From Ostreococcus lucimarinus (lineage: Eukaryota), in the NCBI GenBank assembly GCA_000092065.1, contig CP000582.1: a stretch of DNA of 64,000 nucleotides; one strand, written 5' to 3'. The translations under genes and the position numbers were made by a program. The notes under the pieces are model-generated. The model saw only the letters and a program-made list of their open reading frames with translations, made no database searches and was not told the DNA's origin. Below, piece by piece: positions 2,751 to 46,921 of this stretch. Within the stretch, counting starts at the first letter, position 1; every line of letters starts with the position of its first letter.

Positions 2751-2830
2751 TGACACCGGTGGGATTTGAACCCACGCTCTTTCGAACCAGGACCTGAACC
2801 TGGCGCCTTAGACCACTCGGCCACAGTGTC
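2751..2830 (-). tRNA. tRNA-Leu (anticodon CAG), type II with long variable arm, 80 nt
   Basis: The reverse complement is GACACTGTGGCCGAGTGGTCTAAGGCGCCAGGTTCAGGTCCTGGTTCGAAAGAGCGTGGGTTCAAATCCCACCGGTGTCA. It has a 7-bp acceptor stem with one G-U pair, the D-arm GCCGAGTGGTCTAAGGC, the anticodon loop TTCAGGT (CAG, G37), a 12-nt variable arm and the T-arm TGGGTTCAAATCCCA. It closely resembles plant nuclear tRNA-Leu(CAG). Confidence 0.9.
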
Positions 2831-2919
2831 TTTTCGCCACAATGGCGCGGATCGTACAATAAATAGCGCACCGTGCGCGCGATTCATATCTATAGCAGGG
2901 GGTTTTTCGGCGAACAAGC

Positions 2920-2992
2920 GCTCAATTAACTCAGTGGATAGAGTGTCAGCTTCCTAAGCTGAGGGTCGCGGGTTCGATCCCCGTATTGAGTG
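2920..2992 (+). tRNA. tRNA-Arg (anticodon CCT), 73 nt
   Basis: The sequence is GCTCAATTAACTCAGTGGATAGAGTGTCAGCTTCCTAAGCTGAGGGTCGCGGGTTCGATCCCCGTATTGAGTG. The D-arm is ACTC/AGTGGATA/GAGT. The anticodon stem TCAGC/GCTGA carries the loop TTCCTAA (CCT). The T-arm is GCGGG-TTCGATC-CCCGT. The acceptor is GCTCAAT/ATTGAGT with a G1-U72 wobble. It is divergent from tRNA-Leu, 89 bp away. Confidence 0.8.
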
Positions 2993-2995
2993 ACA

Positions 2996-3107: not shown

Positions 3108-3238
3108 TCAGTATGTATTACTTTCCAGGCTCTAATGTATGGGGTCTCGATCGCCACGCGCGCGTTGTGGCGTCGTCGCGAGTTATTAGCACTTCGACGG
3201 CGCGCACGTATAAGGCCCGGGAAAGTGATAATGATTAA
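3108..3238 (+). mobile_element. Degenerate copy of a Stowaway-like (Tc1/mariner-type) MITE
   Basis: The left end TCAGTATGTATTACTTTCCAGG is preceded by TA. The interior matches the 29872..30004 copy in reverse complement (ggctctaatgtatggggt... cgagttattagcacttcgacgg). The right TIR is decayed (cgggaaagtgataatgattaa). Confidence 0.7.
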
Positions 3239-3247
3239 CCTGGGTTT

Positions 3248-3390
3248 ATAAGTCGCGATGGATGCCGTGCGTGTTTGTCTGATGCATATTCATACGCGCA
3301 ATAGTCTATATATGTATGCTAGGTCGTGTAGTGTAGATAGACGTTAGCACCACTACAATACAGGATTGTGTTCATCTCCGTTCATCTCCA
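3248..3390 (+). repeat. Promoter-proximal repeat family 'B', copy 1 (about 145 bp), directly upstream of PsaL
   Basis: The 22-mer ATAAGTCGCGATGGATGCCGTG is identical to 6591..6612. The downstream segment tttgtctgatgcatattcatacgcg...agtctatatatgtatg...tcgtgtagtgtagata...ctacaatacaggattgtgttc matches the reverse complement of 26925..27064 with substitutions. Confidence 0.6.
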
Positions 3391-3533
3391 GTGTCCACTA
3401 CCAGCACACATTACACAAGTGTATACGACCCCCATGTAGGAGCGCCATAATACGAGGAAAGTTCCGTATCTCGCGCGATCGCTCGGCCGCGATCTCGAGC
3501 AAAACCGTATCTATCGTCAGTTTCGACCTCAAC

Positions 3534-4395
3534 ATGATCCGAACCGTGAACGTGTCGCTCGGCGCGCGCGCCATCCTCGAAGGAAAGGTGAGTGTAACGT
3601 GTTCATCGAAAATTTCGTGACTCGTCGTACTTGCGCTTTGTTACACAGCGTTTTACATAGCTCGCACGACACTAACGACGATTCTTTCGCTTGGTTGCCG
3701 CAGTCTTTGCGACATGAGAGACGCTCGCGAGCGCCCGTGAGCGTGACGAATAATTCGCGGTAGGTAGCAAAAAAGATTATTTTCGTCGAGTACCATGTTC
3801 TTCAATCGAACGTCTGGCCTGTTATCACCACCGCGTAAGCGAAACGTTCGAAACTGACCGCGATCACGCGTGCTTTCTTTTCTTTCACAGAAGACGTTCC
3901 GTCGTTTTGGCCTCTTCCGATAAAGTCCAAATCATTAAACCGATCAATGGTGATCCGTTCATTGGTATGCTTGAAACGCCGGTGACTTCATCGCCGGACG
4001 TGGCGAACTTTCTTTCCAATTTGCCTGCTTATCGCACCGGCGTAGCCCCTCTCCTGAGAGGAGTTGAAGTTGGCCTCGCTCACGGCTTCTTCCTTACCGG
4101 ACCTTTCATCAAGCTTGGCCCGCTTCGCTCGACCGATGCGGCTGAGTTGGCGGGTTGCCTGTCTGGTGCTGGCCTTGTGCTTATTTTGACGGCTTGCTTG
4201 AGCATCTATGGAGCGACTGCGTTCCAAAGGGAGGAAGTGGTTGGCTTGAAAACTTTAAGTGGTAGAGCCATCGCTAAAGATCCTTTACAATCATCTGACG
4301 GCTGGGCCTCTTTCACTTCTGGCTGGCTTGTCGGAGGTTTGTCTGGCGTCGCCTGGTCGTATGTTTTGACTCAAGTGTTACCGTACTACTCGTGA
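3534..4395 (+). CDS. psaL: Photosystem I reaction centre subunit XI (PsaL), nuclear-encoded precursor, 2-3 exons
   Basis: The mature region (3891..4395) reads [27 protein letters not shown]...[37 protein letters not shown], the PsaL signature. The acceptor is tttcttttctttcacag at 3889/3890. The proposed exon 1 is ATG 3534..3587 ([18 protein letters not shown]) with a perfect AAG|GTGAGT donor. Phase bookkeeping implies an extra micro-exon at 3791..3834 (acceptor cgag|, donor CGC|GTAAGC). The stop codon TGA is at 4393. Confidence 0.85.
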
Positions 4396-6590: not shown

Positions 6591-6700
6591 ATAAGTCGCG
6601 ATGGATGCCGTGTTTTAGGGTTTAGGATTTAGTGCTTGTCTGGTAGGTTATGATCACGTACATGATACGGCCGAAGAGTGATTATATATTGCATTGTACA
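6591..6700 (+). repeat. Promoter-proximal repeat family 'B', copy 2 (partial), upstream of the KDEL receptor gene, with an embedded TTTAGGG-type telo-box
   Basis: ATAAGTCGCGATGGATGCCGTG at 6591..6612 is identical to 3248..3269. It is followed by TTTTAGGGTTTAGGATTTAG (6613..6632) and gcttgtctggtaggttatgatcac, which resembles gtttgtctgatgcatattcatac in copy 1. Confidence 0.55.
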
Positions 6701-27562: not shown

Positions 27563-29686
27563 TCAAATGATGTGCACAATTCCATCGTCAACAAATATCT
27601 CGTTTGAGGTGGCCATTCTGTCTAGAATTTGCGTCACCTTCACAGGGTTGAAATGTGGCGACCACGAAGCTGCACTTCTCATAATAGCAGCAAGTTCTAC
27701 GCTGTTCTGACGAGCTCTAAGCTGACTGAAATTTCGTCTGAAAATACTCAGTTCATCTTCTTCTGTAGTCGGACCAGCAGGTAATGACGTGCAGCAGTCA
27801 GACACAATTTGCTCATTTGCTTCTATCCCGTATTTGAGTAAGCGTATGGCTTCGAGTGCATCGATACGCTCAACTTTCCTCGACATCCTTAGTTTTGCGT
27901 GCGCGCTGGCTAAACGGATCATCGTCTCAAGTGTCCGCGCAGTTATTGGTATCGAGCTTGAAGTTCTGGTCTTTTCTGCTTTCGCAAGTCTCCAAGCAGC
28001 ATATTGTTCAGCGATGCACACTTCTGCTTCATTTGTAAGTTTCTGTTCCCAAGGTCGTTCTTTCATGAATCGCAAATACTTTTGAAGATCGCTCTTCGTC
28101 AAAAACCCGCCGTTTGGCTCAGTACATGCGTCGGTGAAACTCCATTGGTTTTCTGGGTCGACTGCGACACTCGCAAGTCGGCTGCTTGTTGTAGCCGCAG
28201 GGCTCCTGTCCTGGCTATGGAGTTGAAGAACATGGGAAGAAATCGTACGATCGACCGTGGCATCAGATATATCATGAATGACAAAAAGTAAATCGAACCG
28301 TGATAAGAGTGAGTCGGGGAGATTGATGTTGCGAGAAAGACTTTGAGCGTGATCGTACGTCCCATACAGTGGATTGGCAGCAGCAACCACACTGCACCTA
28401 GCATTCAGAGATGCCTGTATACCAGCCTTAGAAATAGTAACCGTTTGCTGTTCCATTACTTCATGTATCGCAACCCTATCGATATCATTCATCTTGTCGA
28501 ATTCATCTATGCAGACAACGCCCCGATCAGCAAGCACCATCGCTCCAGCTTCCAGGCGTCTTTCTCCGGTTTCCATGTCACTAGTGATGGCCGCTGTCAA
28601 ACCAACGCCAGACGAACCGCGTCCAGTCGTACTTATAGCAAAAGGCGCAACACCCATGACACATCGCAATAATTGTGACTTCGCAACGGATGGATCACCA
28701 ACAAGTAAACAGTTAATATCACCGCGAATGTGAGTTCCGTTCGGCAAGTTCTTTTCGTTACCTCCTAGGAGGAGGAGCACTAAGGCTTGCTTAATATGGT
28801 TATGACCGCATATAGATGGGGCTAGAGAACGCCCTAGTAGCTCCAAAAGTTGTCTTGGTTGAACTATATTTGCCATTCTGGTCATGTCTTCGACTTCTGA
28901 TATTGTCGGGATGGGTGAAAGTTCCTTCGATAGTTTTTCTACACAATTTGCAACCAAAACAGTCTGGAAAGTACAAGTGTTACTGCGCTGAACTGGAACG
29001 ACTTTGTAAATTCCGATAATGCTCACTCGGTCTCCGGGTTTGCAGCAATCAACTAAATCTTCTTCGAGAATGACATCCACTGACCGTGGAAGCTGACCAG
29101 CAGGTGCTTTCTCTGGCATTTCTTGAATACATATGCGTTGATGATCAACGTACAACGATTCACCGTATTCGATGTCCAAAGAATTTCCGCTTTGATCTCG
29201 CATTGGAAAAGCCGCACCAGTACTCATACCAGTCAGTGCTGTGACATCGCGATAAATCTGTCCTTGGGACAGCTTTCCTGTATTGGGACAGAACTGAACT
29301 ATCTTTTGAACTTTTGGATTGACAGCGGAGCACTTGGTTACAATGCCATGTACTCGAACCATCTTATTGAGGTATGTTGATAACAGCTGTCTCGGAGACA
29401 GTTCATAGCTTCCAAAATTACCAGAAATACCTACACAAAAAGAGCACGGCTTTCTCAACAAAGATTCGGCGGCCACGCTGAGCGCTTTCAGTGCTACTCC
29501 TGGATCGGTTAGTATCCTCTGCGCTAAAGATGAGTCAAATTCTCGCACATGATCGAGTTGCACGATAAATCTGCCTCCCTCAGTTTGCTTTTGTAGCTTG
29601 ACCAAGTATGTGTCTTCGGAAACGGTTTTGCCGTTCCCTGAAATTTCAAATTTTTTTTGAAAAAAGGCTTCGAACTCGCGTTCCAT
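27563..29686 (-). CDS. MCM3: DNA replication licensing factor MCM3, apparently a single exon
   Basis: The 707-aa ORF reads [29 protein letters not shown], which is near-identical to the corresponding human MCM3 segment. It also has Walker [12 protein letters not shown], Walker B/IDEFDKM, the arginine finger SRFDL, and the C-terminal [21 protein letters not shown], as in MCM3 [20 protein letters not shown]. Confidence 0.9.
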
Positions 29687-29871
29687 GAAGGCGTTCCTCG
29701 CTCGTTGTGTCCAGTTTTAAAGCGCTAGAAGTACTAGCTTTTCACAAGCTCCAATATCAATCGAGCGTGCTCGTAACCGGACTCACTCTTTGAGGCTGCG
29801 CGCTGCGAACGAGGCAGCGAGCGGCGTCCGGGGATTGGTTTTTTGTAAAATTTGTTAGGATTGATATGATA

Positions 29872-30004
29872 TCAGTATATATTACTTTCCACGTCCCCAA
29901 TACGTGCGTACCGTCGGAAGTGCTAATAACTCGCGACGACGCCACAACGCGCGCCTGGCGATCGAGAAGTGCTAGCACCCCATACATTAGAGCCTGGAAA
30001 GTAA
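29872..30004. mobile_element. Intact Stowaway-like (Tc1/mariner-type) MITE, 133 bp, with 20-bp TIRs and TA target-site duplication
   Basis: The left TIR is TCAGTATATATTACTTTCCA. The right end tggaaagtaatacatactga is its reverse complement with one mismatch. Flanking TA dinucleotides are at 29870..29871 and 30005..30006. It sits about 190 bp upstream of the PsbP-like gene. Confidence 0.8.
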
Positions 30005-30195
30005 TACATACTGATATCGGATAGATAGATATCCAACGCCAAAAATGTTTTTCTGGCGTTGGCGTGTCGTACTTGTCGCAGCGTTCGCTTTCTCCACGCG
30101 GCGCAAAGCGTGAAGGAAACCTGCAAAGCGTGAAGGAAACCTGCAGACTCGTTCGCCCGCAAGTGTACGTAATCTCGATTGAGATAAGTTGATAC

Positions 30196-31143
30196 TTGCA
30201 ACCGTTAGTAACTTTTACTGTGAACATGAATGTGCGTATTACTCAGCGGACAGCGTTCCTAACACTAGCCCCTTCGCGCAGCACCGCGTTCAACGGTAGG
30301 AAAGCGTGCAGTAATCGATTCACTCGCATCGCTCGTAAAATCCAAGCGTCGTTGGATTTGACTGAAGATATGGAGCGTATTGTCTCTCGGCGATACGTGG
30401 TTACCTCAACACTTGTGATAGGACAGCTGACACGTGCCTTACCCGCAAAAGCCGTCATGGTATGTATCGAGCGATTGAGCCTAGACCGTGAGCATATCTC
30501 AAAATCGCGTAGGGAATGACGGCAGGGCGCGTTCCAGGGTTCGCCAAGGCCGATACCAATGGCTTTCGAGTGTACACGCGACCCGAGGCCAAAAGCGGTG
30601 GACATGGTGTCGGCTGGAGTGAAATAACACCTTACTCGTTTCAAGCGAATGAGTCATGGAGAGAAACGCCCGTGAGCATTGCTGATCCAGCGGGTACAGA
30701 AATCGATGCTAAATTTGTGAGCGACAGCGATGGAGAGCTGAAAATAATTCTTGCTCCCATCCTTCGTTTTTCAGACAAGGTGAGTGTTTTTTCTGAAAGT
30801 TTGGATGTAAACAAATTGAAACTGAAACAATACATAAAAGGGTGACTTGGATACAATCGATATTAAAGAGCTTGTTTCGTTGAATGCTTTCATAAAAGGA
30901 TTTGGTCCAGAACTATTAGGAAATCCCATACAGGACGAGAACATACTGAGCGCCGAGGAGATTCAAGTAAAAGATAGAACCTACTACATCTACGAACTTG
31001 CAAATCATAGTCTGGTATCAGCAACTACCTGGAATAAAAGAGTTTACATATGTGCCATAACATGCAACTCGTTACAATGGCGAAAAAGTAAATCAAATAA
31101 CATTTCAGTGCTCAAGTCTTTCCAGGTACTTGTCTCCGGCTAG
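30196..31143 (+). CDS. PsbP-domain protein (PPL/PPD family) of the thylakoid lumen, 3 exons, with a transit peptide and twin-arginine signal
   Basis: Exon 1 is 30196..30459 (a Ser/Thr/Arg-rich N-terminus, then the TAT signal SRRYVVTSTLVIGQLTRALPAKA, donor ATG|GTATGT). Exon 2 is 30513..30779 (GFRVY..GWSEI.., donor AAG|GTGAGT). Exon 3 is 30841..31143 (RTYYIYEL..ATTWNKRVYICAITCNSLQWRK, the PsbP fold C-terminal signature). All intron phases are 0 and consistent. Confidence 0.8.
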
Positions 31144-44200: not shown

Positions 44201-44320
44201 ATGAGGGACAAGAGGGACGACATCAAAACAATATCGAACAGATACCTATCACTTCTGAATTTAAAACGGGCAAGTTGGAAATGTGTTCCACCCGAGGACG
44301 ACAGTGCAAGTCAGAGTTGA
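41201..44320 (+). CDS. THO2: THO complex subunit 2 (THOC2/Tho2)-like protein, 1039-aa ORF, probably N-terminal and central domains only
   Basis: The segment LHSDELWGLVSPEFYLTFWSLNLEDVYVPKELY matches the conserved Tho2 motif (..LSP.FY.TFWSL...D..VP...Y) as I remember it. The rest is a long alpha-helical protein. It ends 200 bp before a transposon-like insertion. Confidence 0.55.
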   Translation: MSNTDDRFASLMQISRDDPSNSDDYFWVRLSAAESSALSVDPLTLQNEIHADHAMVNGLLLNADTNFIEAQRLSIGSWSRKELRTNTKITYQLPKSDLLAENLEGYARALSTLRMDSLTTSGRRHSKLIVESHTLMGLFKLNPLRVFDLVFDSVRELADSKHGDAFATSLESSTHLSDIIGFRLTRCADFKRRHKIAQFELKIAAEKENTEIGRLYPYLLPVDRSLYDKARSLQGVSPVDELYSDEPKFLFLESTGSKAGLLPIQASVERIIRLGCGTHALPKLRAKMCEQLKKRIHDEKEKHDENQKLESILRIVFFLGPNVCCDAALTTELLKYFQRVVANKREHLKLIEPAIAKCLLPGLPLLRPNPLICEYIWKVVHQLPLASRGKIYKHAMFVTCSTRLTQIKSSADKSIMRILRRLSNQNAKELGRKLGKLALCHPLTVTKAVLQQVQAYPNMIAPIVQALKYCTALTFDTLTFSVLEHFTETKSKLKEDGQNFSLWFSALCSFSGTLLRQYHDIELNDLLRYILKKLDEGEVLDLLILKDLISKLTGIEILKDVSSLEIQRMAAGEKLRGLHENSTSTDSKRRMKGILRLRTAIEGSDASKSMMLRLLLAIAKCRQRIVLKTASAQMKFLGQLFDECHVVLLQYISFLHTAYSVAELKNSLPEIQSLLCEHQLDAAVVFHLYRPILRQTLFSSLDTSSSLAESHNQYWKKLSRDVKASLHSDELWGLVSPEFYLTFWSLNLEDVYVPKELYAKARARTVKYGSTASSTFDQVTQLPSNVVHDELAESLNVELQQLIEHVSRGTQCILRKNSTWVQTADNLSPASVILETCVLPRCKISHADALYCSNFVELVGRSDTDSFSFIQYYDTLFRNVSYLIYACSEFENKFFATFLTSGMAQLTRWRACDVYKRECWQRSEFRNCLNQSSVEASFKDYLRVLYKWEHRLTKGILRNLQNEDYMEVANSLSSLIAIVDTFPVTELLGNYIYSQVKRISMRDKRDDIKTISNRYLSLLNLKRASWKCVPPEDDSASQS

Positions 44321-44538
44321 CAGGACACGACTCGCACCAACCATATCGTGGTAATGCTGAATGATGCTAATTTTGAGCTATCGACGCAAACAACTCTAGA
44401 CCTAAATTTAGTGGTTTACCATCAAATGATCACACACGCCGACGGTACGCAACTTGCTATCGAAACCAAGGTTTCTCTCGTAAGTGTTCTCACAGCAGCG
44501 CCTCCAGCACCGTGCGCTTGCATACGTATCATATCATA

Positions 44539-45957
44539 TGATACTACCTCCATTCGGAAAGTAATGAGAATGAGCCTTGTTATACGCGATGTCACAGGAT
44601 ATCGAGGCGTGCCGTACATGGCTAGAAAGCTGTTGAAATTTCCCGTACGCTGGCGCAAGTTCCCCTGTGTGAATGTGCGTAAAATCGCCGATGCATGATG
44701 ATTTCCATTTTGCTTCATTTACAAAATGATAGGAAAATGCGAAAAAAGTTGCAAAAGTTCGAGAGCGATTTAGCTAAATTTTCACCCCTCTTAGGGTTTT
44801 GTCCTTTTCTCTACGCATGTCCGCCCATCGACGAAGAAACTCTCTACGCGCGTGCTCCGCGCGTCAGCGCGCGCGCGGACGTCACTAATGGACCCGGGGT
44901 GCGACGGAGAGCTCGCACGCTAAGTTTCACATGATTTGGCCGCTTGGTGTGCTAAACCGAGGCACTGAGCGCCGAGGGAGCGACGAGGAGCGCACGCCAT
45001 CAAGTTCGAATCGCGCGCGTCGACGGACGAAGTTGGAGGTTCACGGCGACGCGCGTACGCGACCGAAGAGCGCGAGGCTGCGGAAGCGTAAGGAAACACC
45101 CTCGCGCATAGTTCCCGGCCCTCTGTTGAGTCCGTTCAAGGCTCCAAGCGGCGTGCGCGCGCGCGATGGACGGGAACTGAGCGACACGGAGAGAGCCGCT
45201 TTCGCGAAGTGCATGCACTTTGCGACGCGTTGCGGACAAGCCTCGGTAGCAGACGTATGCAAGGAATGGGGAATAAGCAAGTCTCATGGATACAAGATCT
45301 TAAATCGGTGGCGAACGGAGGAGAGCGTCCAGTCTCGACCCAGAAGTGGGCGCCCACGCGCATTGACGGAGGAGGACATGCACACGCTCGAGTGCCTGTC
45401 GGAAGAGCTCAAAGGTTACTTCACGTGGGAATCGCTGGCGAAGCGGTTCACGGAAAAAACAGGTAAGCGCGTGTCGTGTACAGCTGTGTATAGTTCTTGT
45501 AAATCAGCCGGCTGGCGCCAAGTGTGCGAGCGTTATGTACCTTGCCTCAGCGCAACAGACGTGGCGAGAAGATTGGAGCAATACCATGAATACCATGACC
45601 GCGAGAGACTTGAGAGGTGCTGGGATGTCAAAACCGCAGTCACTAAATGCATCCTCGACGCCAACGGAACGAACGATTACAAGCTACCGCACGGTATCAA
45701 GCACGAGGAACCCATTTTTGTCGATATTTTCTTAGATTCGGACGATACAGACGATCCGGTGGCGCGCACTTTGGACTACGAAGGTCTGCATGCCTCACTC
45801 CCTTCTTCTCTCCCACGATAAATTTATGTTGCAAAAGTTGCGACCCCCTCGATTTTCCTCGAGTTGTAACTCAAGAAAAAAAACGCGGAAAAAAGACCCC
45901 CTCACGATTTCACGAATCACGAACCGTCTCATTACTTTCCGAATGGAGGTAGTATCA
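44539..45957. mobile_element. Tc1/mariner-like DNA transposon remnant: 31-bp inverted repeats flanking an ORF that encodes only the paired-type HTH DNA-binding domain (no DDE domain)
   Basis: Perfect inverted repeats sit at 44539..44569 (tgATACTACCTCCATTCGGAAAGTAATGAGa) and 45927..45957. There is a TA at 44537..44538. The internal ORF 44931..45821 contains CKEWGISKSHGYKILNRW ... SGRPRALTEEDMHTLECL ... GKRVSCTAVYSSCKSAGWR, the Tc1-type bipartite HTH. The TIRs share ATTACTTTCC with the MITE TIRs. Confidence 0.6.
44931..45821 (+). pseudogene. Truncated Tc1/mariner-type transposase gene (HTH domains only, catalytic DDE region absent)
   Basis: See the element above. The 296 aa have a basic, low-complexity N-terminus followed by two HTH units. 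No D..D..E triad is visible. Confidence 0.5.
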
Positions 45958-46010
45958 GTATATATTACTTGCCACGTCCCTAATACGTGCGTGCCATCGG
46001 AAGTGCGTAC
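45955..46010 (+). mobile_element. Truncated copy (5' 56 bp) of the Stowaway-like MITE, abutting the right inverted repeat of the Tc1-like remnant
   Basis: tcagtatatattacttgccacgtccctaatacgtgcgtgccatcggaagtgcgtac matches 29872..29928 (tcagtatatattactttccacgtccccaatacgtgcgtaccgtcggaagtgct). Confidence 0.6.
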
Positions 46011-46921
46011 GAACCCCGTTTCTCAGTTAGACTTCCAATTCCTCAAATTATATCGGCGTTTATATCATTAAATATGTCACATGTGATCGTGTACTCATCT
46101 TTAAAACTACGGTGCGTTACGGACAGGTCACGTGGCGTTTCCCCTCGTTTGTCGGACGTATACTTCGTCACTCCTGATCAATCTTTGAGAGAAATGGACG
46201 GCGTTTGGAAGCTGAGAAGTGTGTCCAAATTTGTGACGACCGACAGCCTCTGGGAAATGGGTCCACACCGATACTCGGGTTTCATACGCTACAACGTGGC
46301 TGGGGGGCTCGTTAGCGTGTGCTTTAGTCCTTACGACAAAGTAAACCATTTGACAATTTTCACTGGGCGATCTTCACAGGGGTTGATATCCTTCGTCAAG
46401 GTTGATGACTCTCCACTGTTTCACTTATCCACGCTCTAAAGATTTGTAGGTTGCGCTCGCCCTATACGTTACCTTGGTGAGTTGTTTTCGTCATAAAGTA
46501 GTTGCCTATGCTGGTAAAGTATCTGTACACGCAAGTACGTCGTTCTGATGGTCAGGAATCGCTCACGAAATTAATCTACGAAAGGCGGCGTTGTTTCACA
46601 TATTCTTCACACGTTCACTGGACAAGTATCTGCGGCTGCAGTAGAGGTTAGTCAGTTCTGATTTCTTAGCAACGCACACCAATTTTGTGAATAGGGAAAA
46701 GGGGAATTAAAAAGAACTTATGCGCTTTACAAGGTAATGACTCTTTTCATGACCGAAACCTTCATTCAAGAGAAAGTTTTCGCCTAGTATGGCCCATGTT
46801 TGAACATGTTATCCTTGAGAACACACGAAGAGAAAGAAAGACTTTGCCTTATATGGAAAAAGCTGTAAATTATCGGAATGATGAGCAAAGAGTACAAAAA
46901 CGGTACTCCAGAAGTGCACAG

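What the first reader, a model, noticed from the sequence alone, without database searches (positions are those of the whole stretch)
29872..30004. Stowaway-like MITE family (TIR TCAGTAT[A/G]TATTACTTTCCA, TA duplication) with three copies in 64 kb, two in promoter positions
The copy at 29872..30004 is intact: 20-bp TIRs with one mismatch, TA on both flanks, 133 bp. A degenerate inverted copy is at 3108..3238 between tRNA-Arg and PsaL. A 56-bp 5' fragment is at 45955..46010. CAGT-initial TIRs plus a TA target-site duplication are the Tc1/mariner hallmark. Plant Stowaway MITEs sit preferentially near genes, and here the intact copy is about 190 bp upstream of the PsbP-like start codon.
Basis: seen in the sequence. 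Interest (0 to 1): 0.5.

Follow-up and report, generated by a model that had tools for sequence, protein, structure and literature searches.

The report
Pogo-type MITE family in Ostreococcus

Summary
The intact element is 29872..30014 (143 bp), not 29872..30004 (133 bp). The 20-bp terminal inverted repeat (TIR) occurs four times in the window against 0 expected. The copy at 3108..3238 and the fragment at 45955..46006 are real.

The window is the low-GC part of Ostreococcus lucimarinus CCE9901 chromosome 2. A metagenome scan found at least 9 more full-length copies at unrelated sites, with TA on 16 of 18 flanks, plus a paralogous empty site. So this is a true MITE family.

"Stowaway-like" is wrong. 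The MITE is the 5' 79 bp joined to the 3' ~66 bp of a ~3,516-bp autonomous element. That element encodes a 909-aa transposase with Pfam DDE_1 and DD35D spacing, which marks the pogo superfamily. The TIR does not match the Stowaway consensus CTCCCTCCRT.

The Stowaway-type TIR (CTACCTCCAT) belongs to a separate 1,409-bp mariner-like element at 44544..45952. It sits in the TA next to MITE copy 3 and is present, absent or full-length in different environmental contigs.

The MITE upstream of MCM3 and the PsbP-like gene is present in every contig examined. No regulatory role is shown.

This is a new member of a known kind, of modest interest.

The parts
29872..30014 (+). Intact MITE copy, 143 bp. 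TIRs are at 29872-29891 and 29995-30014. It lies in the divergent intergenic region between MCM3 and the PsbP-like gene.
   Evidence: (I5). It is 93% identical to the family consensus. It is present in every environmental contig covering the site.
29870..29871 (.). Left TA target-site duplication of the intact copy. The right copy is at 30015-30016.
   Evidence: TA is on 16 of 18 flanks of 9 distinct full-length copies. A filled versus empty paralogous site shows a 2-bp gain at TA.
3108..3238 (-). Degenerate MITE copy, 131 bp, in inverted orientation. It lies 113 bp downstream of tRNA-Arg and 668 bp upstream of the PsaL-domain ORF. One terminus is eroded and has no TA on that side.
   Evidence: I1, I2; 85% over 134-135 bp. 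The same copy is in L013, L023 and L050.
45955..46006 (+). 5' fragment of the MITE, about 52 bp, with TA on its left at 45953-45954.
   Evidence: (D1, 93%). It is also present in contigs that lack element B (L037, L056, L090).
44544..45952 (+). Separate 1,409-bp mariner-like element ('B'). It has perfect 26-bp TIRs (CTACCTCCATTCGGAAAGTAATGAGA) and TA duplications at 44542-44543 and 45953-45954. It is inserted in the TA that flanks MITE copy 3. It is an internal-deletion derivative of a roughly 2.03-kb element.
   Evidence: (I3). Empty sites with a single TA are in L037, L056 and L090. A near-full-length allele at the same site is in L083.
44931..45821 (+). 296-aa ORF of element B, annotated XP_001416162.1 'transposase-like protein'. 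It keeps the helix-turn-helix DNA-binding part and the C-terminus, and lacks the catalytic core.
   Evidence: The full-length 522-aa relatives are P0046 and P0047. An AlphaFold model of P0046 best matches Mos1 mariner transposase.
27563..29686 (-). MCM3 gene. Its ATG is 185 bp from the MITE.
   Evidence: XP_001416404.1.
30227..31143 (+). PsbP-like gene, split into several frames by short introns. The first ATG is 212 bp from the MITE.
   Evidence: The PsbP Pfam hit is on 30847-31143.
3237..3375 (+). Unrelated repeat 'C' abutting MITE copy 2. Other copies of C host a MITE insertion or the autonomous element, and they serve as paralogous empty sites.

Best explanation
The flagged sequence is one copy of a non-autonomous DNA transposon (MITE) family of Ostreococcus lucimarinus.

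Origin: the family arose by internal deletion of a ~3.5-kb autonomous pogo-superfamily transposon. The first 79 bp and the last ~66 bp of the parent are joined within a CGCG microhomology.

Proposed mechanism (inferred, not shown): the parent's 909-aa DDE_1 transposase binds the shared ~30-bp TIRs and subterminal sequence. It cuts the element out and pastes it into a TA dinucleotide, which is duplicated.

Distribution: all copies recovered lie in low-GC, outlier-chromosome-type DNA.

Status of the window copies: the copy at 29872..30014 is an old insertion present in all sampled haplotypes, in the shared upstream region of MCM3 and a PsbP-like gene. The other two window copies are decayed or truncated.

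What is shown and what is not: shown are family membership, TIRs, the TA duplication, derivation from the autonomous element and the transposase class. Inferred are trans-mobilisation by that transposase and any current activity. No effect on neighbouring genes is shown.
For: - TIR: four occurrences in the window against 0 expected.
- Family recurrence: a metagenome scan with the 19-mer returned 49 loci. Of these, 41 carry the family and 8 are chance 19-mer hits with no further similarity.
- Copies: 9 distinct full-length sites of 142-143 bp, 96-100% identical to the L044 copy used as BLAST query. TA is on 16 of 18 flanks. Flank GC is 0.45-0.49.
- Empty site: L055 reads ...GCT-TA-[MITE]-AA-TTCATAC. 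The uninterrupted paralogue L042 reads ...GCT-TA-TTCATAC.
- Long elements share the MITE ends. L051 7965->4452 matches MITE positions 1-89 and 77-138. L060-L066 end ...ATACTGA|TA. Junction mapping and the 3,516-bp length estimate are.
- Transposase: spliced prediction of 909 aa, open across two short introns in L061, L062 and L063. Pfam DDE_1 scores 42.4 bits against a cut-off of 22 and covers 15-177 of 177 profile positions. Spacing between the second and third catalytic D is 35 residues. There is a weak HTH_Tnp_Tc5 hit. Eight of 10 distant relatives score above the DDE_1 cut-off.
- These values fall within the published pogo ranges: 1.2-5.2 kb, 300-977 aa, TIR mostly <=40 bp, TA duplication, DD29-59D (PMC7386202).
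- Organism: the MCM3 protein is identical to XP_001416404.1 of O. lucimarinus CCE9901, on a contig of 895,087 bp.
Against: - No transposition assay exists, and no orthologous filled/empty pair was found for the MITE itself. The only empty site is paralogous.
- The flagged copy is present in every contig examined. Those contigs were selected by an exact or near-exact MCM3 protein match, which biases toward close haplotypes.
- The HTH_Tnp_Tc5 hit is below Pfam's cut-off.
- The catalytic triad was read off motifs and the Pfam match, not from a curated alignment. No phylogeny places the transposase within pogo.
- I could not check whether CCE9901 itself holds an intact autonomous copy. The L051 copy is frameshifted and has a damaged 3' tip.
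- Most MITE copies carry ACGGA rather than ACTGA at the 3' end. That is one TIR mismatch relative to the parent.
Confidence: 0.88

Rival explanations
1. It is a Stowaway-type MITE in the strict sense, derived from and moved by a mariner-like element. The mariner-like family present in the same window (element B and its 522-aa relatives) would be the candidate.
For: - The MITE has a TA duplication, small size and a hairpin-forming TIR.
- A mariner-like family with TA duplication coexists and has been recently mobile.
- Both TIRs contain the 10-mer ATTACTTTCC, but in opposite orientation relative to the element end.
Against: - The TIR TCAGTATGTA does not match CTCCCTCCRT.
- The MITE termini are about 97-99% identical, over 79 bp and about 66 bp, to the ends of the DDE_1 element. 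They show no similarity to element B beyond the 10-mer.
- Element B's TIR occurs only at B's own two ends in the window.
Confidence: 0.04
2. The insertion at 29872..30014 has been co-opted as part of the bidirectional MCM3 / PsbP-like promoter. Its presence in every contig would then reflect selection rather than drift. This is compatible with the best explanation of its origin.
For: - It lies 185 bp and 212 bp from the two start codons.
- It is present in both haplotype groups, which differ by a 15-bp indel and one SNP inside the element, and in every contig covering the site.
- Genes in the low-GC outlier region are reported to be unusually highly expressed and enriched in transposable elements (bioRxiv 10.1101/2025.04.21.649811).
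Against: - No transcription-start, expression or reporter data exist.
- In a genome this compact, any intergenic insertion is near a start codon.
- This copy has diverged about 7% from the consensus, like a neutral sequence.
- One contig (L006) carries a rearranged TIR at this site.
- The contigs sampled are close relatives, so presence everywhere is weak evidence.
Confidence: 0.1
3. It is a local inverted duplication or a chance palindrome, not a mobile element.
For: Only three copies are in the window, and two of them are degraded.
Against: - Zero matches are expected by chance.
- Nine full-length copies lie at unrelated sites with sharp boundaries and TA flanks.
- There is a paralogous empty site.
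- There is a parent element with a transposase gene.
Confidence: 0.005
4. It is a structured non-coding RNA gene or an introner-type element.
For: The single strand folds better than shuffles (z = -3.5), through the TIR stem only.
Against: - Rfam finds only the two tRNAs in the window.
- The fold is just the TIR pairing.
- The three window copies lie outside the recognised coding sequences, and the element ends are not GT...AG.
Confidence: 0.01

Closest known systems
pogo-superfamily transposons (pogo, Tigger, Lemi, Fot/Fot-like, Passer) and the MITEs derived from them, such as Arabidopsis Emigrant/Lemi1 and the human Tigger-derived MER elements (these named examples are from my own knowledge)
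   Same: - The autonomous partner has a DDE_1 catalytic domain, DD35D spacing, a TA duplication, a short (~30 bp) TIR, a 3.5-kb length and a 909-aa transposase. All are inside the published pogo ranges (PMC7386202).
- The MITE is a simple internal-deletion derivative of that partner.
   Different: - The transposase is very divergent. Its best relative among 1.84 billion cluster representatives is 34% identical, and only 98 score E<=0.001.
- No DNA-binding domain passes Pfam's cut-off.
- The gene carries two short introns.
- The published survey found pogo in only one green-algal species (Fot-like). Its held supplementary files do not list Ostreococcus, Bathycoccus or Micromonas.
- The TIR starts TCAGT.
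Stowaway MITEs with plant mariner-like elements (Osmar/PlantMar, DD39D)
   Same: TA target duplication, small size, TIR hairpin and intergenic location.
   Different: - The Stowaway TIR consensus CTCCCTCCRT (PMC1925063) is not present in the flagged MITE.
- The flagged MITE's partner is not a mariner-like element.
- In this window the Stowaway-type features belong to element B (44544..45952). Its TIR CTACCTCCAT matches 9 of 10 consensus positions.
- Full-length relatives of B align with an Aegilops DD39D protein at 27% identity, E=1e-24.
- The modelled fold of a full-length relative best matches Mos1.
Transposable-element enrichment of the low-GC outlier region (BOC1) of Mamiellales chromosomes
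   Same: - The window is O. lucimarinus chromosome 2, with low GC of 0.42-0.53.
- Every family copy recovered has flanks of GC 0.45-0.49.
- Enrichment of this region in transposable elements, including Tc1/Mariner calls from an automated annotation pipeline (EDTA), is published (bioRxiv 10.1101/2025.04.21.649811).
   Different: That work reports superfamily-level densities. I found no paper describing this MITE family, its pogo-type parent, or the allelic series at element B.

Membership tests
MITE (generic non-autonomous class II element) | Small (<500 bp) with no coding capacity | tested here: met
   142-143 bp. It holds only the parent's terminal regions.
MITE (generic non-autonomous class II element) | Terminal inverted repeats | tested here: met
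   19 of 20 positions match in the window copy. In the consensus, 22 of 23 match, and the repeat extends to about 30 bp with one indel.
MITE (generic non-autonomous class II element) | Target-site duplication reproduced across copies at unrelated sites | tested here: met
   TA is on 16 of 18 flanks of 9 distinct full-length sites. A paralogous empty site shows a 2-bp gain.
MITE (generic non-autonomous class II element) | High copy number | tested here: inconclusive
   About 16 distinct insertions were recovered from metagenome contigs. No whole-genome count was possible. The number is low by plant standards, though the genome is only about 13 Mb (PMC2367439 abstract).
Stowaway | 10-bp TIR consensus CTCCCTCCRT (PMC1925063) | tested here: not met
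   The TIR is TCAGTATGTA.
Stowaway | TA target-site preference | tested here: met
Stowaway | Derived from or mobilised by a mariner-like element | tested here: not met
   The ends match a DDE_1 (pogo-type) element, not the mariner-like family in the same genome.
pogo superfamily (applies to the autonomous partner) | DDE_1 (PF03184) catalytic domain | tested here: met
   42.4 bits against a cut-off of 22, covering profile positions 15-177 of 177. Eight of 10 relatives also pass.
pogo superfamily (applies to the autonomous partner) | Spacing between the last two catalytic residues within DD29-59D | tested here: met
   35 residues lie between VVDGCQ and QGEDTK. The triad was assigned by motif and Pfam match, not by a curated alignment.
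pogo superfamily (applies to the autonomous partner) | N-terminal DNA-binding domain of CENP-B_N / HTH_Tnp_Tc5 / HTH_psq / BrkDBD type | tested here: inconclusive
   HTH_Tnp_Tc5 scores E=0.022 and 15.1 bits against a cut-off of 22.2. One relative scores 19.1 bits. The published 'Mover' family also lacks a detectable DNA-binding domain.
pogo superfamily (applies to the autonomous partner) | TA duplication and short TIRs flanking a 1.2-5.2 kb element | tested here: met
   About 3,516 bp. The ends read TA|TCAGTAT... and ...ATACTGA|TA.
pogo superfamily (applies to the autonomous partner) | Phylogenetic placement inside the pogo clade, and in which family | not tested
Mariner-like element / PlantMar (applies to element B, 44544..45952) | TA duplication shown by a filled versus empty orthologous site | tested here: met
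   L037, L056 and L090 carry a single TA where the window has TA-B-TA.
Mariner-like element / PlantMar (applies to element B, 44544..45952) | Tc1/mariner-fold transposase with a DDD triad | tested here: met
   - B itself lacks the catalytic core.
- Full-length relative P0046 carries the motifs DIDEKWW, QMDNARPH and SPDTNLND.
- The model has mean pLDDT 58.8, with 75-91 in the core. Its best PDB matches are Mos1 (E=1.7e-8) and Sleeping Beauty (E=2.6e-5).
- The spacing is DD45D, against DD39D in the Aegilops relative.
Introner elements | Copies sit inside genes as spliceosomal introns | tested here: not met
   All three window copies lie outside the recognised coding sequences.

The most novel reading that the evidence does not exclude
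Two TA-targeting transposon systems, with their non-autonomous derivatives, may be currently or very recently active in wild O. lucimarinus and confined to the low-GC outlier region. One is a highly divergent pogo lineage. The other is a mariner-like lineage carrying a Stowaway-type TIR.

The mariner-like element would be a chlorophyte member, or sister, of the plant PlantMar/Stowaway system. A published survey reported no Tc1/mariner elements in Chlorophyta and no PlantMar in green algae (PMC7325037). A chlorophyte member would favour an ancient Archaeplastida origin of the Stowaway/PlantMar system over horizontal acquisition by angiosperms.
Probability: 0.3. Interest if true: 0.5.

Novelty: new member of a known kind. 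Interest (0 to 1): 0.3.

Why it matters
- Ostreococcus has one of the smallest and densest free-living eukaryotic genomes. Its outlier chromosome region is a focus of work on mating type, virus resistance and genome plasticity.
- A defined MITE family, its intact parent, and a neighbouring mariner-like element with empty, full-length and deleted alleles in ocean metagenomes give concrete markers for transposon activity and for population structure in that region.
- Both families are also candidate tools for transposon tagging in a transformable alga.
- The practical correction is taxonomic. TA plus a CAGT-type end does not make an element Stowaway. Here the parent is pogo-type.
- No regulatory effect on MCM3, PsbP-like or PsaL is shown.

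Tried and rejected
- **Insertion polymorphism of the flagged copy.** Contigs were fetched by the exact MCM3 protein and by a variant, P0003. All carry the element.
- **Empty sites for eight other insertions (seven further full-length MITE sites and window copy 2).** Among the loci held, none was found except the paralogous repeat-C site.
- **Word-index protein search with the pogo-type transposase.** It returned only its own cluster.
- **Sequence searches of the PDB with both transposases and with a profile.** Nothing significant was found, apart from weak paired-domain similarity for the mariner-like protein.
- **Rfam.** Only the two tRNAs were found.
- **Bacterial-type promoter and terminator scan of the intergenic region.** It is uninformative for a eukaryote.
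- **A related 903-aa pogo-type element (P0109).** I checked whether it shares the TIR. It does not.
- **Eight metagenome loci.** They were rejected as chance 19-mer matches.
- **Literature searches for an earlier description of MITEs or pogo in Ostreococcus.** None was found in the held library. The Palenik 2007 genome paper could not be read.
- **Alternative duplication (AT, with the element starting at CAGTAT).** Rejected, because the reconstructed empty site would then be 2 nt too long relative to uninterrupted paralogues (inference).

Full report
**1. Observation**

The sequence at the flagged position reads gata|TCAGTATATATTACTTTCCACG ... CCTGGAAAGTAATACATACTGA|tatc.

- The 20-mer TCAGTATRTATTACTTTCCA occurs at 29872-29891 (+), 29995-30014 (-) and 3108-3127 (+). 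A one-mismatch version is at 45955-45974 (+). None is expected in 100 dinucleotide-preserving shuffles.
- The intact element therefore runs 29872..30014 and is 143 bp.
- TA lies on both flanks. With the flanks included, the inverted repeat is 24 nt at 96% (I5).
- The copy at 3108..3238 is inverted and 85% identical over about 135 bp. One terminus is eroded.
- The piece at 45955..46006 is a 5' fragment.
- A sensitive BLAST with the family consensus and with the complete autonomous element finds exactly these three pieces in the 64 kb.

**2. Organism and setting**

- The 707-aa ORF on the minus strand next to the element (27563..29686) is identical to MCM3 XP_001416404.1 of Ostreococcus lucimarinus CCE9901. 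It lies on a contig of 895,087 bp. From my own knowledge, this is the size of chromosome 2, the 'big outlier chromosome'.
- Window GC is 0.42-0.53. This fits the low-GC outlier region, which is reported to be enriched in introns, transposable elements, MCM genes and highly expressed genes (bioRxiv 10.1101/2025.04.21.649811).
- The element lies 185 bp from the MCM3 ATG and 212 bp from the first ATG (30227) of a PsbP-like gene. The PsbP domain is on exon 30847..31143.
- Copy 2 lies 113 bp after tRNA-Arg and 668 bp before the PsaL-domain ORF at 3907..4395.

**3. Is it a family?**

One scan of JGI metagenome contigs with TCAGTATRTATTACTTKCC returned 49 loci.

- Eight are chance 19-mer matches with no TA flank and no further similarity. 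The rest carry the element.
- After collapsing identical flanks, there are 9 distinct full-length insertions of 142-143 bp. They are 96-100% identical to the L044 copy used as BLAST query.
- TA is on 16 of 18 flanks. The two exceptions are single-base changes (TG, TT).
- All flanking DNA has GC 0.45-0.49.
- Adding truncated and long copies gives about 16 distinct insertions.
- The consensus TIR matches at 22 of the first 23 positions and continues to about 30 bp with one indel.
- One insertion (L055 and three sister contigs) sits inside a copy of another repeat, 'C', which is also found at window 3237..3375. The filled site reads ...GATGCT-TA-[element]-AA-TTCATAC. Uninterrupted paralogues read ...ATGCT-TA-TTCATAC. 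This shows a discrete insertion with a 2-bp gain at TA.

**4. The autonomous partner**

- Several loci match only the first 89 bp of the MITE. In L051, a second match (MITE positions 77-138) lies 3.4 kb away on the same strand.
- That 3.5-kb element has ORFs of 467 and 411 aa. The first hits Pfam DDE_1.
- The L051 copy is frameshifted and lacks the last few bases.
- Contigs L060-L069, fetched through the 524-aa version of the ORF, carry undamaged copies. Among them, L060 and L062-L066 end ...GGAAAGTAATATATACTGA|TA.
- Most of these contigs are only 3.0-3.7 kb long. This is what repeat collapse at a multi-copy element produces.
- Removing two short introns (130 and 53 nt) gives an open 909-aa protein in three independent contigs.
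- That protein's DDE_1 match rises to 42.4 bits against a cut-off of 22 and spans positions 15-177 of the 177-position profile.
- The second and third catalytic aspartates (VVDGCQ, QGEDTK) are 35 residues apart.
- The MITE consensus equals the first 79 bp of the element joined to its last ~66 bp, within a CGCG run. Identity is 78/79 and 64/66. The full element is about 3,516 bp.

**5. Classification**

- The pogo superfamily is characterised by a DDE_1 domain. It usually has HTH_Tnp_Tc5-type DNA-binding motifs, a TA duplication (TAA or TAAA in some Fot elements) and TIRs mostly of 40 bp or less. Elements are 1.2-5.2 kb, transposases are 300-977 aa, and spacing is DD29-59D, with DD35D typical of Passer and Fot-like (PMC7386202). 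The Ostreococcus element fits each range.
- The DNA-binding domain is only weakly detected: HTH_Tnp_Tc5 at E=0.022.
- The lineage is isolated. The word-index search found only its own cluster.
- The exhaustive HMMER search of 1.84 billion representatives found 98 proteins at E<=0.001. The best non-fragment match is 34% identical. Eight of ten relatives tested pass the DDE_1 cut-off.
- The closest relative (903 aa) sits in a 3.5-kb element with unrelated TIRs.
- Stowaway is defined by the TIR CTCCCTCCRT, a TA target and mariner-like partners (PMC1925063). The first and third features are not met. The family should be called a pogo-type MITE, analogous to Emigrant/Lemi1 or the Tigger-derived MITEs (from my own knowledge).

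**6. The element next door**

The repeat finder also reported perfect 31-nt inverted arms at 44539-44569 and 45927-45957 (I3).

- *Boundaries.* Comparison with environmental contigs fixes them. In L037, L056 and L090, window 44300-44543 runs straight into 45953-46300 with a single TA. So a 1,409-bp element (44544..45952, TIR CTACCTCCATTCGGAAAGTAATGAGA) has inserted with a TA duplication, into the very TA that flanks MITE fragment 3.
- *Coding content.* Its 296-aa ORF (XP_001416162.1, 'transposase-like protein') has only helix-turn-helix domains.
- *Full-length relatives.* These are 522 aa and carry DIDEKWW, QMDNARPH and SPDTNLND motifs.
- *Structure.* An AlphaFold model has mean pLDDT 58.8, with 75-91 in the catalytic core. 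Its best matches are Mos1 mariner transposase (E=1.7e-8) and then Sleeping Beauty.
- *Alleles at the site.* A Tara contig (L083) has a near-full-length copy, 100% identical to the window over 1,379 bp plus 619 extra bp, with a 504-aa ORF. L084 and L085 have the reference deletion form. L082 has in addition a 200-bp deletion of the left flank that ends exactly at the TA.
- *Relation to plant elements.* The TIR start CTACCTCCAT matches the Stowaway consensus at 9 of 10 positions. A sister copy has CTAACCTCCGTT. Named distant relatives are from angiosperms, diatoms, a brown alga and Pyramimonas. P0046 aligns with an Aegilops protein across the catalytic domain at 27% identity, E=1e-24. That protein is DD39D and the alga's is DD45D.
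- *Literature.* A published survey reported no Tc1/mariner in Chlorophyta (PMC7325037).

This is the more interesting by-product, but it needs a phylogeny.

**7. Function**

- The flagged copy is present in all 14 contigs spanning the whole site and in those that break inside it. These contigs fall into two haplotype groups that differ by a 15-bp indel and one SNP in the element. It is an old insertion present in every haplotype sampled.
- It is 93% identical to the consensus.
- Nothing shows that it acts as a promoter. In this gene-dense genome, position near start codons is the default for any tolerated insertion.
- Rfam finds no RNA family. The single-strand fold is just the TIR stem.

**8. 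Verdict**

This is a new member of a known kind, of modest interest. The neighbouring polymorphic mariner-like element is a side finding worth following up.

Noticed in passing
window 44544..45952 (TA at 44542-44543 and 45953-45954); loci L037, L056, L090, L082, L083, L084, L085: A 1,409-bp mariner-like deletion derivative with a Stowaway-type TIR (CTACCTCCAT...). Ocean metagenome contigs show four alleles at this site:
- empty, with a single TA;
- near-full-length (~2.03 kb, 504-aa ORF);
- the reference deletion form;
- the deletion form plus a 200-bp flank deletion (44342-44541) ending at the TA.

Distant relatives include angiosperm DD39D proteins. Published surveys reported no Tc1/mariner in Chlorophyta.
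   Followed up: partly
window 3237..3375 (fragments at 416-467 and 6591-6612); L042 1891-2010; L055 flanks of 3475-3616; L051 7967-8035: Another dispersed repeat, 'C', of about 140 bp. It abuts MITE copy 2. In other contigs it hosts a MITE insertion, and it hosts the autonomous pogo-type element. Its nature is unknown and no obvious TIR was seen.
   Followed up: partly
window 30103..30145: A perfect 20-bp tandem duplication (GCAAAGCGTGAAGGAAACCT, 2.2 copies) lies between the MITE and the PsbP-like start codon. It is present in all contigs aligned.
   Followed up: no
window about 29829/29830; L002, L003, L004, L006, L008-L010: A 15-bp indel (GGACGCCCTTCGCAA) between the MITE and MCM3 splits the environmental contigs into two haplotype groups. 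In the seven contigs that cover the SNP position, it is linked to a C/T SNP inside the MITE. L006 also has a rearranged left TIR region.
   Followed up: no
window 29881-29890 and 44559-44568 / 45928-45937: The 10-mer ATTACTTTCC occurs in the TIRs of both the pogo-type MITE and the unrelated mariner-like element B. Its orientation relative to the element end is opposite in the two. This could be chance or a shared host-factor site. It remains unexplained.
   Followed up: no
L079-L081 (for example L081 55-78 and 3554-3577): A second pogo-type element encodes a 903-aa intron-free transposase, 34% identical to the MITE's parent. Its TIRs are different (TATTGGGYGGAATTACTCTTA). It lies in low-GC contigs, and in L079 it is next to a THOC2-like gene.
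   Followed up: partly
L051 4452-4470 and L061 185-210: The sequence TTGCGAGCTATACCTTA lies just after the damaged 3' tip of the L051 autonomous copy. It also lies just before the 5' end of the L061 copy. This suggests a shared or preferred insertion context, or a tandem arrangement.
   Followed up: no
window 2751..2830 (-) and 2919..2994 (+): A divergent tRNA-Leu(CAG) / tRNA-Arg(CCT) pair lies just upstream of MITE copy 2.
   Followed up: no
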